The notes: a model not told the origin generated them from the letters alone. 5,660 bases of DNA from Candidatus Vampirococcus lugosii (GCF_018420025.1 NZ_JAEDAM010000060.1:1-5660); one strand, 5' to 3'; positions 1-5,660 are shown, counted from the first letter of the stretch. Made by a program: numbers and translations.

Positions 1-281
1 TATATATAACTTTTTTATAATAAAGAAATTAATACTTTTTTCAAGATTTCATACAAGTAAAGACAGCTTCAAGATTATCATTAAAAACTAAAGCAGTTTC
101 TAAAACATAAGCATTATTTATCTCTTTACCTGTATTTAAATTTATAAAAAAGTAATATTTTATTATATTTTTCTGTTTATACAATTTTTTTATATTTTTT
201 TTTATTTGATTTTTTTAATTAAAAAATTATTATATTTGAACATAAAAAATAAATATTTTATATCATTAATTATCTATAAAA

Positions 282-971
282 ATGAATAAAAAAATATTTG
301 TATTATTTTCTTTGTTTGCTATACTGATTATTAGTTCTATATTAATCTGATTTTTTAATTATTTTAATATTATTAAAATTAATAAAGACTTAACCAAGTC
401 TTTGGATGAAATAAATTCTAAATTATCTTATAATTCAGAACAAAATTTTTCATCTGATGATGACAATATTGAAAATGATGATATTGAAAATGAAAATGAT
501 AATTATAATTATTATGAAAATAATAAAGATTTTGGATTAAATCAAGATGATTTATTTGATTCGTTTTTGGAAGAAAGAGATAGAATGTTTGATGAAAAAA
601 ATGAAATGTTTGATGATTTTTTTCAAAATTTGGATAATTCAAGATCTTTTGGTATGAATATTAATCCTAAATGATCAAATAATATGAGTTTTTCCAATAC
701 TTATATAAGAAATGGTGAAGTTTTTAAATATTCTATAAAAATTAATGATGATAAACTTTATTGATCACTTACTACAAAAAATGAAGATGAACTTACAAGA
801 TATTATGAATTATTAAATAAATTAGATTTGAATATAACTAAAGAATCTAATAAAATAGAATTTGATTGAAATTCTAAATATATGGATGAAGTATTAAAAA
901 TTTTTGGTAAAAATTTTGATTTTGAAATAGAGTCTAAAGATAAAAATAATTTGAATCCTAGAGAGTTTTAG
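282..971 (+). CDS. Hypothetical membrane-anchored or secreted protein with an acidic D/E/N-rich low-complexity linker (229 aa; four in-frame TGA read as sense)
   Basis: ATG at 282 is the first start after an in-frame TAA (267..269). The frame stays open to TAG at 969..971 if the TGAs at 348, 672, 762 and 867 are read through. It contains the track ORF 402..674 in the same frame. The N-terminus MNKKIFVLFSLFAILIISSILI(G)FFNYF is a hydrophobic signal or anchor with no lipobox Cys. It is followed by SSDDDNIENDDIENENDNYNYYENNKD and MFDEKNEMFDDFF, then a roughly 100-aa non-repetitive C-terminal domain. I recognise no family. Confidence 0.7.
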
Positions 972-1003
972 TTTTATATAAAAAATAATTTTAACTAAAA
1001 ATT

Positions 1004-1714
1004 ATGAAGGATTTAATTATAAATAATGAAAAAATTCCTATAAATATAATAAAAAGCCCAAAAAGAAAAAGTACTTTATCTTTTCGTATGACTTGTGATT
1101 GATTAATTATTAGAAGTCCAGTTGATAAAGTAGATAAATTAATAAATGAATTTTTATATAAAAGACAGGATTGGATTTATAAAAATTGGTTAGTTCAAAA
1201 GAATAATAAAACTGTTATCAAAAAATATGTTAGTTGAGAAACTTTTTTGTATAAAGGTAAAAAGTATATACTCAAAGTTATTCAATGAAATTATAAATGA
1301 TGTAAAATTGAATTTAATAATTCATTTTTTTTTGCATATATAGACGAAAATATTTCTGATAAAATTAAATGAAATTATATAAAACTTGAATTAGACAAGT
1401 GGTACAAAAATAAATCTAAAGAAATAATAAAAAAAGAAGCAGAAAAAATTATTAAATTATACAATTTTGATGTAAATAAAATAATTATTAAATCTTATAA
1501 GTCTAAATATGGGCAATGTAAGGCTAATGATATTTATTTTAATTATCTGATAATTAAATTTCCTTTATGAATTATAAAACATATTATTTTACATGAATTA
1601 TGTCATATTGAGCACAAAAATCATAGTAAAAATTTTTGGAATTTGTTATCAGTGTTGGACAAAAATTGTAAAGAAAACAGAAAATGGATCAAAGAAAATT
1701 GAAATTTAGATTAA
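1004..1714 (+). CDS. YgjP/DUF45-like (COG1451, M48-related) HExxH zinc metallopeptidase, 236 aa; seven in-frame TGA read as Gly
   Basis: ATG at 1004 is the first start after an in-frame TAA (992..994). The stop is TAA at 1712..1714. The motif HELCHIEHKNHSKNFW (HExxH at 1592..1606) matches the family signature HELxHxxxxNHSxxFW. Other family-like blocks are STLSFRMTCD(TGA)LIIRSP, YVS(TGA)ETFLYKGKKYILKV, KSKYGQC (family position R-W-G-S-C) and the C-terminal RKWIKEN(TGA)NL. The gene starts 32 nt after 282..971, so the two are probably co-transcribed. The family assignment is from memory of its motifs, not from a search. Confidence 0.85.
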
Positions 1715-1725
1715 AACTTCTGTAT

Positions 1726-2715
1726 TTACACCTCACCATATAAATAAAAACCTATTCCATCATCCAATAATAATTCCAATATTATATTAGATAATTTTGA
1801 TACTCTTTTACTATGTCATGGACTATAAGTTAGATCAAAAACATCTATTAATTTAATCATCAATTCAATTCAATTAGCAAAATTCATATTTCAAGTAGTA
1901 TTAATAGTATTTATTATTTTTTGAAAACTAAAAAATTCAACTCATCATGGATTTAATCTTCATATATTATTTGTCAAATATTTTGTTATTTCAATATTTG
2001 ATTTAGGAGTTTTATTAAAATTAATTAATCTATTAAAAAAACAATCCTTATTATTTTTATCTATAACATTTTTATATAAATATATAAGATTTTTTGATTC
2101 AATAGTATTTGTCTTTTTTATAACTTCCATACTTTTTTTATCAAAAATTTTTTGATAAGAATTTAAGTCAATTTCATAAGTTTCAAAATTCATTCAAGAT
2201 AAATTTACTAATTCATTATATAATTGTTTAACATAAAAAGATAATGATATTATCATAGATAAAAATAAAATAGAAGTTTTTGGGATTCATATATTTTCTT
2301 TATCCAAAATAATTCATAAAATACCATCCGTATTTTTATTTGACAAAACAGAATATAATTCATCAGAAACATGTATTTTCAAAATATTACTACATAAACT
2401 TTTTAAATAATTAAATAAATCTGCTGGAGTCTCTCACATAAATATATCTTCCAATAAAGAATCTATTTCAGTTTTTAAAGAATTTATATTTTTTTCCAAC
2501 TCACCTAAAGCCAATAAATCCAAATTTGTTGATATACAATATAAATTGTATTGTATTTTTGATGCTATATCAACCAATAAATAATAATATTTATTTCTAT
2601 TTATAACTTCTTTATTATATTCTACATTTTTATTATATTCAAATATTTGTTTATCTTTTTCAGATATAGAATTATTTTCATTTGTATGATTATCTTCTTT
2701 AACCTCAATTTCCAA
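1726..2715 (-). CDS. Hypothetical protein (core gene B, about 329 aa from TTG 2715); start uncertain, no recognised family
   Basis: One minus-strand frame is open from 2895 down to TAA at 1726..1728 once the in-frame TGAs are read through (10 downstream of 2715). It joins the track ORFs 2434..2715 and 1960..2193, which are in the same frame. In DNA this A+T-rich, TAA/TAG should occur by chance every dozen or so codons, so a run of more than 330 codons is strong coding evidence. Candidate starts are TTG 2715 (7 nt after the upstream gene's stop) and ATG 2811 (an 89-nt overlap). Alternatively there is no independent start if this is fused to gene A by a frameshift. The last 12 codons (DGIGFYLYGEV*) lie inside IR-L. 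Confidence 0.7.
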
Positions 2716-3897
2716 TGCATTATTAAATATTTCATTTCAAAAATCATTTTCTCATATAAGATAATATAATGTTCCAAAAAAAATTATATACAAGTAAATC
2801 AGTATTTTCATCACAACAAATATTTCAAGATATATACATATCAAAATATTTATCCAAAACTTTTTTATTATATTTATTAATATGATTTGAAGAACCTAAT
2901 TTAAAGATTAATAATAATCTAAAAATTTGAATAAAAAATTCTGATGAATTTAATTTATCTTTATTTTTTATTAAATTAAAATCAATATTTTCATCCAGAT
3001 TTCAATCTGATGATTTTATCATTTTTATTCATGATAATATTTTATTTCTATATTTTTCAAAAAGAGACATAGTAAAATTAAATCATCTACTAAAATTAGT
3101 ATCTGTTTTGGAAAGTATTTTACTAAATCTTCTAAAAATATCTAATTCAGAAGCAGATAAAAAATAATGTAAATATAAATTAGTATCATAATCAAGTAAT
3201 TCAGATAATGTTGATTTAGCATCTTTTAAATTATTTTCAATACTACTTAATGAATTTGTCAATATAGGTCATTTAAATTTACAAATTTCATTTCATAAAA
3301 AAGCATTATCTTTTACAGAATTTAAATATGAATTATATTTATCAATTTGTATATTATAAACTTGTTCAATATTATCAAATATATTTTTCATATAAGAAAA
3401 AAATGTTTCATTATCTGTAAATCATTCTTTCTCATAAAAATATTTAAAAAATGTGTGTCTTTTGTTTGAAGGAATTATATTTAATATATTCTTTATTTTA
3501 GTATCAATTAAGATAAAAGAATTATTATCCAATGATTCCAAATTGTAATAATCTATTGCATTATTTAATTCTATAACTTGAACTCTTGCTTTATTAAAAT
3601 CAAATCATAATTCATTATTTAGTTCTATATTTCAATCATTTTCATAAATTCTATCACTTAATTCTATATTATTCATACAATATATTTAACTATTTTAAAT
3701 AAATTATTATTTATCTATTGTATAATAATATTATTCATATTTTCAAGTTTATTTTTACTTGTAATGTTAATTTATATAATATTTTAATTTTTTTATTAAA
3801 AAATATGGAAAATTTTGGAGTTTGCTCTAAATAGCTGTTTATGCTGAATTTTCAAATATTATTTCAATAAGAAATTCAAAATTTGAAGAAAATGCTA
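1764..3897. other. Unique core segment (2,134 bp) between the inverted arms
   Basis: This is the only part of the window without a mirror partner. It holds gene A, most of gene B and a 221-bp non-coding stretch (3677..3897) upstream of gene A. Confidence 0.9.
2723..3676 (-). CDS. Hypothetical protein (core gene A, 317 aa; 11 in-frame TGA read as Gly); no recognised family
   Basis: ATG at 3676..3674 is the first start after an in-frame TAA (3686..3688). The frame is open to TAA-TAA at 2725..2720. It is absent from the ORF track only because TGAs cut it into short pieces. My hand translation begins MNNIELSDRIYEND(G)NIELNNEL(G)FDFNKARVQVIELNNAIDYYN and includes ...NLYLHYFLSASELDIFRRFSKILSK...EFFIQIFRLLLIFKLGSSNHINKY... 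It looks helical and N/K/D/E/I/F-rich, and I see no catalytic motif I can name. Confidence 0.75.
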
Positions 3898-3935
3898 ATG
3901 ATGGAATAGGTTTTTATTTATATGGTGAGGTGTAA
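3898..3935 (+). pseudogene. Orphan duplicate of the 3' end of core gene B (12 codons plus TAA) at the inner edge of IR-R
   Basis: The + strand reads (a)at gat gga ata ggt ttt tat tta tat ggt gag gtg taa, which is identical to the gene B tail in IR-L. The frame is open upstream only to a TAA at 3828..3830 and contains no ATG, GTG or TTG start. Confidence 0.5.
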
Positions 3936-3946
3936 ATACAGAAGTT

Positions 3947-4657
3947 TTAATCTAAATTTCAATTTTCTTTGATCCATTTTCTGTTTTCTTTACAATTTTT
4001 GTCCAACACTGATAACAAATTCCAAAAATTTTTACTATGATTTTTGTGCTCAATATGACATAATTCATGTAAAATAATATGTTTTATAATTCATAAAGGA
4101 AATTTAATTATCAGATAATTAAAATAAATATCATTAGCCTTACATTGCCCATATTTAGACTTATAAGATTTAATAATTATTTTATTTACATCAAAATTGT
4201 ATAATTTAATAATTTTTTCTGCTTCTTTTTTTATTATTTCTTTAGATTTATTTTTGTACCACTTGTCTAATTCAAGTTTTATATAATTTCATTTAATTTT
4301 ATCAGAAATATTTTCGTCTATATATGCAAAAAAAAATGAATTATTAAATTCAATTTTACATCATTTATAATTTCATTGAATAACTTTGAGTATATACTTT
4401 TTACCTTTATACAAAAAAGTTTCTCAACTAACATATTTTTTGATAACAGTTTTATTATTCTTTTGAACTAACCAATTTTTATAAATCCAATCCTGTCTTT
4501 TATATAAAAATTCATTTATTAATTTATCTACTTTATCAACTGGACTTCTAATAATTAATCAATCACAAGTCATACGAAAAGATAAAGTACTTTTTCTTTT
4601 TGGGCTTTTTATTATATTTATAGGAATTTTTTCATTATTTATAATTAAATCCTTCAT
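3947..4657 (-). CDS. YgjP/DUF45-like HExxH zinc metallopeptidase; identical second copy in IR-R
   Basis: Exact mirror (5661-x) of 1004..1714, so the same motifs apply. Confidence 0.85.
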
Positions 4658-4689
4658 AATTTTTAGTTAAAATTATTTTTTATATAAAA

Positions 4690-5379
4690 CTAAAACTCTC
4701 TAGGATTCAAATTATTTTTATCTTTAGACTCTATTTCAAAATCAAAATTTTTACCAAAAATTTTTAATACTTCATCCATATATTTAGAATTTCAATCAAA
4801 TTCTATTTTATTAGATTCTTTAGTTATATTCAAATCTAATTTATTTAATAATTCATAATATCTTGTAAGTTCATCTTCATTTTTTGTAGTAAGTGATCAA
4901 TAAAGTTTATCATCATTAATTTTTATAGAATATTTAAAAACTTCACCATTTCTTATATAAGTATTGGAAAAACTCATATTATTTGATCATTTAGGATTAA
5001 TATTCATACCAAAAGATCTTGAATTATCCAAATTTTGAAAAAAATCATCAAACATTTCATTTTTTTCATCAAACATTCTATCTCTTTCTTCCAAAAACGA
5101 ATCAAATAAATCATCTTGATTTAATCCAAAATCTTTATTATTTTCATAATAATTATAATTATCATTTTCATTTTCAATATCATCATTTTCAATATTGTCA
5201 TCATCAGATGAAAAATTTTGTTCTGAATTATAAGATAATTTAGAATTTATTTCATCCAAAGACTTGGTTAAGTCTTTATTAATTTTAATAATATTAAAAT
5301 AATTAAAAAATCAGATTAATATAGAACTAATAATCAGTATAGCAAACAAAGAAAATAATACAAATATTTTTTTATTCAT
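4690..5379 (-). CDS. Hypothetical membrane-anchored acidic low-complexity protein; identical second copy in IR-R
   Basis: Exact mirror of 282..971. It contains the track ORF 4987..5259(-), which is identical to 402..674(+). Confidence 0.7.
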
Positions 5380-5660
5380 TTTTATAGATAATTAATGATA
5401 TAAAATATTTATTTTTTATGTTCAAATATAATAATTTTTTAATTAAAAAAATCAAATAAAAAAAAATATAAAAAAATTGTATAAACAGAAAAATATAATA
5501 AAATATTACTTTTTTATAAATTTAAATACAGGTAAAGAGATAAATAATGCTTATGTTTTAGAAACTGCTTTAGTTTTTAATGATAATCTTGAAGCTGTCT
5601 TTACTTGTATGAAATCTTGAAAAAAGTATTAATTTCTTTATTATAAAAAAGTTATATATA

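What the first reader, a model, noticed from the sequence alone, without database searches (positions are those of the whole stretch)
1..5660. The whole window is a perfect A-B-A' foldback: 1,763-bp inverted arms around a 2,134-bp core
In every block I compared, the arms are identical at every base, and they end exactly at the window ends. Each arm carries two complete genes. I see three possible readings.

1. It is a small linear element with long terminal inverted repeats.
2. It is a chromosomal or plasmid segment flanked by a very recent inverted duplication. Arms this long and identical would support flip-flop inversion of the core by homologous recombination and would be kept identical by gene conversion, as in plastid IRs or the yeast 2-micron plasmid.
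3. It is an artefact. One polymerase template switch (copy 1..3897, then jump to the displaced strand at 1763 and copy back to 1) gives exactly this structure, and inverted chimeras are typical of multiple displacement amplification. A de Bruijn graph path A -> B -> rc(A) through a short true inverted repeat would give the same contig.

No recombinase, transposase, terminal-protein polymerase or protelomerase is encoded here, so if inversion or replication is real it depends on functions supplied in trans.
Basis: partly seen in the sequence, partly recalled or inferred. Interest (0 to 1): 0.85.

Follow-up and report, generated by a model that had tools for sequence, protein, structure and literature searches.

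The report
Amplification fold-back chimera in a contig
The perfect 1,763-bp inverted arms are really in the sequence, but they are most likely an artefact of whole-genome amplification and short-read assembly of a few Vampirococcus lugosii cells, not a biological inverted repeat or a linear element.

Summary
Bases 1-1763 are the exact reverse complement of 3898-5660, around a 2,134-bp core.

The window is a complete 5,660-bp contig of Candidatus Vampirococcus lugosii (Absconditabacteria, TGA = Gly). That genome was assembled with SPAdes from MDA- or MALBAC-amplified DNA of about 10 cell consortia.

Three results point to an artefact:
- **Left junction (1763/1764).** It cuts a gene inside its HD-GYP catalytic domain. 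Similarity to a 578-aa paralogue stops at ...LLLDD, at the junction. The missing C-terminal half sits as an orphan partial gene at the end of another contig of the same assembly.
- **Right junction (3897/3898).** An independent assembly of another sequencing run reads straight through it without a fork. It continues past the window's end into a UvrD-like helicase gene, so the window ends are not molecule ends.
- **Geometry.** The join is inverted, spans 2.1 kb, and has about 5-6 nt of inferred microhomology. This is the commonest class of MDA chimera.

The native order is helicase | ORF1-ORF2-ORF4-HD-GYP gene. The left arm is a fold-back copy. The outer 195 nt of each arm also look mis-joined.

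Interest is low, except as a warning about the deposited record. Raw reads could not be checked here.

The parts
1..1763 (+). Left arm. It is the fold-back (non-native) copy of the ORF1-ORF2 segment, an exact reverse complement of 3898-5660.
   Evidence: Judged non-native because its inner end truncates ORF3.
3898..5660 (-). Right arm. This is the native copy. ORF1' and ORF2' are co-directional with ORF4 and ORF3 on the minus strand.
   Evidence: Logan contig L002 (SRR13241709) aligns at 99.4% to window 5469->3300 and runs through 3898/3897 without a break.
1764..3897 (-). Unique core. It holds ORF4, the N-terminal 351 codons of an HD-GYP gene (ORF3), and the ORF4 upstream intergenic region (3677-3897).
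1758..1764 (-). Chimeric breakpoint (left junction 1763/1764). On the ORF3 sense strand it reads ...TTATTGG|ATGATGGAATAGG. The first 5-6 arm bases (ATGAT[G]) still encode the conserved ...LLLDD of the paralogue. This implies 5-6 nt of microhomology.
   Evidence: The microhomology is inferred from the paralogue's protein sequence, not from the true downstream DNA.
3897..3898 (.). Right junction. This is a native adjacency: ORF2 stop, then 49 nt, then the ORF4 upstream region.
   Evidence: L002 from an independent run passes through it. The ORF2-to-ORF4 spacing is 271 nt in both L002 and the window.
282..971 (+). ORF1 (229 aa). It has an N-terminal transmembrane segment and an acidic low-complexity region. 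Function unknown. The mirror copy is at 4690-5379 (-).
   Evidence: MBS8122247/51.
1004..1714 (+). ORF2 (236 aa). A YgjP-like / M48-type zinc metallopeptidase with an HELCH motif. The mirror copy is at 3947-4657 (-).
   Evidence: Pfam PF01863, E = 7e-35, spanning seven in-frame TGA codons. Accessions MBS8122245/50.
1726..2811 (-). ORF3 as annotated (361 aa). It is the N-terminal half of a membrane-anchored HD-GYP phosphodiesterase gene. An artificial 10-residue tail (GIGFYLYGEV*) is read from the arm at 1726-1758.
   Evidence: 72% identical to paralogue P0002/P0004 up to ...SNIILELLLDD. The GHSKRV helix aligns with the first helix of the solved HD-GYP domain 5z7c. ORF3 itself has no Pfam HD hit.
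2723..3676 (-). ORF4 (317 aa). A hypothetical protein with no family match.
   Evidence: MBS8122249. Its N-terminal 125 codons are also present in L002.
1..195 (.). Segment X, mirrored at 5466-5660. These outermost 195 nt of each arm carry a 51-aa ORF at 29-184 (-). X is not the sequence found upstream of ORF1 in either independent assembly. The switch occurs at a T9 tract at 196-204. X is probably a second mis-join.
   Evidence: The ORF has no relatives.

Best explanation
The window is a chimeric fold-back contig. The native chromosome of Candidatus Vampirococcus lugosii reads: UvrD-like helicase (divergent) | ORF1 -> ORF2 (YgjP-like peptidase) -> ORF4 -> a full-length HD-GYP gene. In window coordinates this is the minus strand, from 5465 down to 1764.

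During whole-genome amplification of about 10 cell consortia, a growing strand that had copied this stretch was displaced inside the HD-GYP gene, at ...TTATTGGATGAT(G)-3'. Its 3' end re-annealed through 5-6 complementary bases to a displaced strand of the same amplicon, 2.1 kb upstream and just downstream of ORF2. It then copied back outwards, which made an inverted 'A-B-A' molecule.

The chimeric junction was abundant enough in one read set to survive assembly. The native continuation of the gene was not assembled; about 130 nt are missing. SPAdes therefore left the core through the chimeric link and walked the same graph edge a second time in the opposite orientation. This is why the arms are identical at every base and stop at the same point.

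**Shown:**
- the exact repeat;
- the truncation of the gene at the junction;
- the orphan C-terminal half on another contig;
- the unbranched native right junction and the chromosomal continuation in an independent run;
- the amplification and assembly methods.

**Inferred:**
- the strand-switch mechanism;
- the microhomology;
- that the window derives from run SRR13241708.
For: 1. **Source and method.** ORF3 is MBS8122248 / WP_213349646 of Ca. V. lugosii, on a contig of exactly 5,660 bp. The genome paper states that DNA was amplified with REPLI-g MDA or MALBAC from about 10 consortia, sequenced as 2x125 Illumina reads, and assembled with SPAdes 3.6.0 at default settings (PMC8080830).

2. **Left junction cuts a gene.** ORF3 aligns at 72% with the 546/578-aa HD-GYP paralogue. 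The last 37 aligned residues are identical. The alignment stops at ...LLLDD, which is base 1764/1759. After that the paralogue continues into the HD-GYP domain, whereas ORF3 reads 10 codons of arm and then a stop. The cut lies between the first His helix (GHSKRV) and the HD dyad of the catalytic domain.

3. **The other half exists.** P0011 (MBS8121789) is a 175-aa 'HD-GYP domain-containing protein, partial' at the end of a 17,747-bp contig of the same assembly. It is 82% identical to paralogue residues 405-578. Only about 44 codons separate the two orphan halves.

4. **Independent assemblies.**
   - L002 (SRR13241709) runs helicase-ORF1-ORF2-ORF4 straight through 3898/3897 with no fork. It extends about 1.5 kb beyond where it stops matching the window.
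   - L003 (SRR13241708) is identical to window 196-1763 and ends exactly at base 1763, as expected at a graph fork.
   - The helicase identification is.

5. **Geometry matches MDA chimeras.** More than 85% of MDA chimeras are inverted joins. They are mostly intramolecular and less than 10 kb apart. For joins under 10 kb, 93.5% have at least 2 nt of complementarity at the junction (PMC1855051). WGA palindromes are a recognised problem for assembly (abstracts of PMC6218980 and PMC13265396).

6. **Nothing suggests a mobile or autonomous element.** There is no mobile-element or replication gene, no tRNA or Rfam hit, and no plasmid or phage relative.
Against: - No reads were examined, so depth, pair orientation and junction support are unknown.
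- Single chimeric junctions are usually rare. For one to dominate an assembly it must have formed early ('jackpot'), and the native path must have dropped out. This is plausible for few-cell WGA but was not shown.
- P0011 could belong to a third paralogue rather than to ORF3. The roughly 130 nt that would join them were not seen.
- The fork at 1763 in run SRR13241708 would also be produced by a real inverted repeat.
- The absence of a fork in L002 shows only that the left junction is absent or pruned in that run. That run also carries a slightly different haplotype (0.4% divergence).
- Which run was MDA and which was MALBAC is not known.
Confidence: 0.88

Rival explanations
1. The repeat is a real, very recent inverted duplication in one V. 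lugosii strain. A copy of the ORF1-ORF2 segment was inserted in inverted orientation into one of two HD-GYP paralogues and inactivated it. The 1.8-kb arms would then allow flip-flop inversion of the core and would be homogenised by gene conversion.
For: - The arms are perfect and long.
- Run SRR13241708 shows a fork exactly at 1763, so both junctions are well represented in that read set.
- The run lacking the fork carries a different haplotype, so a strain-specific rearrangement is possible.
- A redundant paralogue (P0004) exists, so losing one copy could be tolerated.
Against: - The DNA was amplified by methods known to create exactly this structure.
- The other half of the disrupted gene is present as an orphan at a contig end in the same assembly, with an intact reading frame.
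- The arms end at the contig ends, and their outer 195 nt disagree with both independent assemblies.
- No recombinase is encoded nearby.
Confidence: 0.06
2. The contig is a pure assembly-graph error with no chimeric molecules. A genuine short inverted repeat (at least k-1 nt) lies at the inner ends of the arms. The assembler walked X-R-core-rc(R)-rc(X) instead of continuing into the true flank.
For: - The arms stop at the same base at both ends, as expected when one graph edge is used twice.
- SPAdes was run in default mode rather than single-cell mode.
- The last roughly 110 nt of ORF3 before the junction encode residues 100% identical to the paralogue. The graph is therefore probably tangled there.
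Against: - A true repeat of 54 nt or more at the junction would put GIGFYLYGEV-stop inside the HD-GYP gene.
- The paralogue continues ENYHDK... at this point.
- The orphan C-terminal half shows that the gene goes on.
- Only 5-6 nt are shared at the breakpoint, far below any SPAdes k. K-mers spanning the join must therefore exist in reads.
Confidence: 0.04
3. The window is a small autonomous linear element, a plasmid or phage-like replicon, with 1.76-kb terminal inverted repeats.
For: The repeats reach the exact ends of the sequence.
Against: - Two independent assemblies continue from inside the arm into a chromosomal UvrD/PcrA-like helicase gene instead of ending.
- No replication, terminal-protein, protelomerase or structural genes were found.
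- No plasmid or phage relatives were found.
- The core carries half of a housekeeping-type signalling gene.
Confidence: 0.01

Closest known systems
Inverted ('palindromic') chimeras of multiple displacement amplification (Lasken & Stockwell 2007, PMC1855051; Pacasus paper, PMC6218980)
   Same: - The join is inverted, between two sites 2.1 kb apart on the same molecule.
- A short complementary stretch lies at the junction.
- The source DNA was MDA- or MALBAC-amplified from a few cells.
- The result is an A-B-A' palindrome.
   Different: Such chimeras are usually seen in single reads. Here the chimera was incorporated into a deposited short-read contig and annotated. A second odd join at the T9 tract (195/196) is carried in both arms. 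The mechanism is inferred, because no reads were examined.
Large inverted repeats that drive flip-flop inversion (plastid IRs, yeast 2-micron plasmid)
   Same: The formal A-B-A' layout is the same. The arms carry whole genes and are identical.
   Different: Those repeats are bounded by unique sequence on both sides and are reproducible in every preparation. The 2-micron plasmid encodes its own recombinase. Here one inner boundary truncates a gene, the outer boundaries are contig ends, and an independent run lacks the second junction.
Linear plasmids and phages with long terminal inverted repeats (terminal-protein-primed or hairpin-ended replicons)
   Same: The inverted repeats reach the very ends of the sequence.
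   Different: There is no polymerase, terminal protein or protelomerase. The sequence continues into chromosomal genes in other assemblies.

Membership tests
MDA/WGA inverted chimera | The template DNA was produced by strand-displacement whole-genome amplification. | tested here: met
   The genome paper's methods state REPLI-g MDA (samples V7, V8) and MALBAC (V12) on about 10 consortia. Protein accessions identify the contig as part of that assembly.
MDA/WGA inverted chimera | Two segments that are close together and co-linear in the genome are joined in inverted orientation. | tested here: met
   The native order ORF1-ORF2-ORF4-ORF3 is seen in L002. The window joins base 1764 to the inverted copy of base 3898, 2,134 nt away.
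MDA/WGA inverted chimera | There is a short complementary stretch (2-21 nt) at the junction. | tested here: inconclusive
   The paralogue's conserved ...LLLDD extends 5 nt (ATGAT, possibly 6) into the arm. The true downstream DNA of ORF3 was not available to confirm this.
MDA/WGA inverted chimera | The junction is absent from independent amplifications and from unamplified DNA, and the native continuation exists elsewhere. | tested here: inconclusive
   L002 from SRR13241709 shows no fork at the arm's inner end. An orphan C-terminal half of an HD-GYP gene lies at another contig's end. Reads and unamplified DNA were not examined.
MDA/WGA inverted chimera | Read-level signature: abnormal pair orientation at one junction and no two-fold depth in the arms. 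| not testable with these tools
   There is no access to the reads of SRR13241708/9.
Biological large inverted repeat with flip-flop inversion | Both inner junctions are present in every DNA preparation, and the core is found in both orientations. | tested here: not met
   The assembly of run SRR13241709 carries only the right junction. The left junction is inferred only for run SRR13241708.
Biological large inverted repeat with flip-flop inversion | The repeat is bounded on its outer sides by unique genomic sequence. | tested here: not met
   Both arms end at the contig ends. Their outer 195 nt differ from the sequence that flanks ORF1 in L002 and L003.
Linear replicon with terminal inverted repeats | The sequence ends are physical molecule ends. 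| tested here: not met
   L002 and L003 continue past the point corresponding to window 196 into a UvrD-like helicase gene.
Linear replicon with terminal inverted repeats | It encodes end-replication functions (terminal protein with a B-family polymerase, or a protelomerase). | tested here: not met
   Pfam, NCBIfam and PHROGs scans of all four proteins find only a YgjP-like peptidase.

The most novel reading that the evidence does not exclude
One V. lugosii strain may really carry a fresh 1.8-kb inverted duplication of the ORF1-ORF2 segment, inserted into one of its two HD-GYP paralogues. That would create an invertible 2.1-kb cassette in a highly reduced CPR genome that encodes no dedicated recombinase nearby.
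Probability: 0.06. Interest if true: 0.35.

Novelty: not a real feature. Interest (0 to 1): 0.07.

Why it matters
The biological importance is small. The practical importance is real.

- **The public record is affected.** A contig in the GenBank/RefSeq genome of the only described Vampirococcus appears to be a fold-back chimera. As a result, three ORFs are annotated twice, and a truncated HD-GYP phosphodiesterase is listed as a 361-aa hypothetical protein with an artificial C-terminus. The two halves of that gene sit on different contigs.
- **Automated screens can be misled.** Screens that treat terminal inverted repeats as a sign of complete linear elements, or of invertible segments, will flag such contigs. 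The combination seen here is a cheap sequence-only way to recognise them: arms that end at the contig ends, one inner junction that cuts a gene, and a WGA origin.

Tried and rejected
- **Standard-code ORF calling** gave only fragments. Comparing genetic codes showed TGA is a sense codon. It was read as Trp at first, then corrected to Gly (code 25) from the source organism and the GHSxRV alignment.
- **Exact-pattern scan of viral contigs** for the arm's inner end found nothing.
- **The search for related loci in genome contigs with P0002** returned only an unrelated Nitratiruptor HD domain. The V. lugosii assembly is not retrievable there, so the 22.7-kb and 17.7-kb contigs could not be read.
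It found nothing for P0001, P0002, P0011, P0012 or two table-11 ORFs.
That search was wasted.
- **Exact look-ups of code-4 versions** of ORF3, ORF4 and the X ORF in Logan found nothing.
- **The representative search with the X ORF** found only the ORF itself, so the origin of bases 1-195 stays unknown.
- **A PDB sequence search for ORF2** found nothing.
- **tRNA and Rfam scans** were empty.
- **blastn against plasmids and phages** gave no plasmid match. The phage search gave only one short (129-nt, 73.7% identity) match in six Lak phage records, read here as chance similarity between AT-rich sequences.
- **A short + strand ORF running into the right arm** was considered as a possible paralogous gene end. 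It is only 34 codons with no proper start, so it was rejected.
Full report
**Observation.** The window is 5,660 nt with 17.6% G+C. Bases 1-1763 are the exact reverse complement of 3898-5660. After base 1763 the two strands are no more alike than composition predicts, with 678 mismatches in 1,067 positions. The repeat finder reports the same pair at 100% complementarity with 2,134 nt between the arms. It reports nothing else beyond short AT-rich chance matches.

**Coding content.** With the standard bacterial code only fragments appear. Reading TGA as a sense codon gives four clean genes:
- ORF1, 282-971 (+), 229 aa. It has an N-terminal transmembrane segment and an acidic low-complexity region.
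- ORF2, 1004-1714 (+), 236 aa.
- ORF3, 1726-2811 (-), 361 aa.
- ORF4, 2723-3676 (-), 317 aa.

Mirror copies of ORF2 and ORF1 lie at 3947-4657 (-) and 4690-5379 (-). ORF2 matches the Pfam YgjP-like metallopeptidase family end to end (E = 7e-35) across seven in-frame TGA codons. The other proteins match no Pfam, NCBIfam or PHROG family. There are no tRNA genes and no Rfam matches.

On the minus strand, ORF1', ORF2', ORF4 and ORF3 are all co-directional. The left arm converges on ORF3 with only 11 nt between the two stop codons.

**Source.** A protein search with ORF3 found two clusters, both from Candidatus Vampirococcus lugosii. One is the protein itself, on a contig of exactly 5,660 bp. The other is a 546-aa HD-GYP protein on a 22,680-bp contig. 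Exact look-ups confirmed that ORF1, ORF2, ORF3, ORF4 and a 51-aa ORF are GenBank proteins MBS8122245-52 of that organism. The arm genes each carry two accessions. The window is therefore one whole contig of that assembly.

The genome paper (PMC8080830) states the following:
- About 10 host-epibiont consortia were collected by micromanipulation.
- DNA was amplified by MDA (REPLI-g) or MALBAC.
- Sequencing was 2x125 Illumina.
- Each dataset was assembled with SPAdes 3.6.0 at default parameters.
- Genes were called with code 25.

The TGA codon in ...SP(TGA)HSKRV aligns with the Gly of AGHSERV in the solved HD-GYP protein 5z7c. This fits TGA = Gly.

**The left junction cuts a gene.**
- ORF3 is 72% identical to the paralogue (P0002; RefSeq long form P0004, 578 aa).
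- The last 37 aligned residues are identical.
- The alignment ends at ...SNIILELLLDD.
- On the DNA this reads TTA TTA TTG G|AT GAT, with the bar marking 1764|1763.
- After that point the paralogue continues ENYHDK... into the HD-GYP domain. ORF3 instead reads ten codons of arm sequence (GIGFYLYGEV) and stops.
- Pfam places the HD_5/HD match of the paralogue at residues 401-536 and finds no HD domain in ORF3.
- The PDB alignment shows that LTYSPGHSKRVSKLSNIILELL corresponds to the first helix of the HD-GYP fold (SPYTAGHSERVAVYTDLIARQL in 5z7c), which comes just before the HD dyad.

The junction therefore lies inside the catalytic domain.

**The missing half exists.** I searched with the paralogue's C-terminal 218 residues, masking the most conserved motifs to stay under the candidate cap. 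The search returned one protein, P0011. It is a 175-aa 'HD-GYP domain-containing protein, partial' (MBS8121789) on a 17,747-bp V. lugosii contig. It is 82% identical to paralogue residues 405-578.

The assembly thus contains one orphan N-terminal half, ending at paralogue residue 360, and one orphan C-terminal half, starting at residue 405. The simplest reading is a single intact gene split over two contigs, with about 44 codons unassembled. That these two halves belong together is an inference.

**Independent assemblies.** The cluster look-up showed Logan assemblies of two SRA runs that encode ORF1 and ORF2. I fetched them.

*L002 (SRR13241709, 3,668 bp)*
- It carries a UvrD/PcrA-like helicase gene on the opposite strand (Pfam PF00580, E = 8e-71), then ORF1, ORF2 and the first 125 codons of ORF4.
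- It aligns at 99.4% to window 5469->3300.
- It runs straight through the right junction 3898/3897.

*L003 (SRR13241708, 1,635 bp)*
- It is identical to window 196-1763.
- It ends exactly at base 1763, as a de Bruijn contig does at a fork.

From these two contigs I conclude:
- The right junction is a native adjacency, reproduced in a separate amplification.
- Run SRR13241708 has two continuations at base 1763, as the window requires. That run carries the window's haplotype and is probably its source.
- Run SRR13241709 shows only the native continuation.

**The window ends are not molecule ends.** Both Logan contigs leave the window's sequence at a T9 tract (196-204) and agree with each other. 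L002 continues for about 1.5 kb into the helicase gene. The outer 195 nt of each arm (segment X) carry a 51-aa ORF with no relatives in 1.84 billion representatives. Segment X is therefore not what flanks ORF1 in either run. It looks like a second mis-join and is duplicated because the whole edge was used twice. Its origin remains unknown.

**Mechanism (inferred).** Lasken and Stockwell analysed MDA chimeras (PMC1855051). They found that:
- 85% of MDA chimeras are inverted joins with an intervening deletion;
- most are intramolecular, between sites less than 10 kb apart;
- for joins under 10 kb, 93.5% have at least 2 nt of complementarity at the junction;
- the cause is a displaced 3' end re-annealing to a nearby displaced 5' strand.

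The window fits this pattern. The join is inverted and the sites are 2,134 nt apart. The bases ATGAT(G) are shared between the conserved ...DD codons and the arm's inner end. The product of such an event is A-rc(B)-rc(A), which is the reverse complement of the window.

The identical arm ends follow from one of two routes. Either synthesis ran to the end of the template strand, or, more simply, the assembler traversed one graph edge in both orientations. The shared 5-6 nt are far shorter than any SPAdes k. Junction-spanning k-mers must therefore have existed in the reads, which favours a chimeric molecule over a pure graph error. Artificial palindromes after WGA are a recognised assembly problem (abstracts of PMC6218980 and PMC13265396).

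**Rival readings.**
- *A real strain-specific inverted duplication.* This cannot be excluded without reads. The fork in run SRR13241708 and the different haplotype in SRR13241709 (0.4% divergence) would both be compatible with it. It would, however, require a coincidence of a WGA origin, a gene cut whose other half lies intact at a contig end, and arms that end at contig ends with a foreign outer 195 nt. I give it 0.06.
- *A pure graph error through a true short inverted repeat.* I give it 0.04.
- *A linear TIR replicon.* This is contradicted by L002 and L003 and by the gene content. I give it 0.01.

**Verdict.** The biology is ordinary: a stretch of chromosome carrying a hypothetical membrane protein, a YgjP-like peptidase, a hypothetical protein and half of an HD-GYP phosphodiesterase gene. 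The A-B-A' architecture is best explained as a whole-genome-amplification fold-back chimera fixed by the assembler (confidence 0.88). The chimeric junction is the left one, not the right one. Interest is low, apart from the curation point that a public record and its RefSeq proteins carry the artefact.

Noticed in passing
window 1-195 and 5466-5660; L002 1-1503; L003 1-66: The outermost 195 nt of both arms carry a 51-aa ORF at 29-184 (-), accessions MBS8122246/52. They differ from the sequence upstream of ORF1 in two independent Logan assemblies, which both run into a divergent UvrD/PcrA-like helicase gene. The switch point is a T9 tract at 196-204. This is probably a second chimeric join or mis-join. 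The origin of the 195 nt was not found.
   Followed up: partly
window 1726-3676 and 282-1714 (all in-frame TGA codons): TGA is a sense codon, with 4, 7, 12 and 11 in-frame TGAs in ORF1 to ORF4. The TGA before HSKRV in ORF3 aligns with the conserved Gly of the GHSxRV motif in solved HD-GYP proteins. This fits code 25 (TGA = Gly) rather than Trp.
   Followed up: partly
window 5163-5190, 5084, 3832-3877 versus L002: The contig from run SRR13241709 differs from the window by about 0.4%. The differences are several SNPs and an in-frame 6-nt indel, clustered in the acidic low-complexity part of ORF1, plus three SNPs in the ORF4 upstream region. ORF2 and the start of ORF4 are identical. This suggests strain micro-diversity between the picked consortia, or amplification errors, even though the 16S sequences were reported as identical.
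   Followed up: no
window 1764-2811 (ORF3); proteins P0004 and P0011: V. lugosii has at least two paralogous membrane-anchored HD-GYP proteins. Their N-terminal domain of about 330 aa has no homologue outside this genome among 5.8 billion proteins. The first 33 residues and the last 37 residues before the junction are 100% identical between the paralogues, while the middle is about 70% identical. This hints at gene conversion or strong constraint.
   Followed up: no
window 2723-2811: ORF4's 3' end and the long (RefSeq) form of ORF3's 5' end overlap by 89 nt in different frames. The GenBank annotation instead starts ORF3 at a TTG at 2715. The long form's N-terminal transmembrane segment is conserved in the paralogue, which favours the long form.
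   Followed up: no
whole window (public record): GenBank and RefSeq annotate both arm copies as separate genes. They also list the truncated HD-GYP gene, with its artificial 10-residue tail, as a 'hypothetical protein' (WP_213349646).
   Followed up: partly
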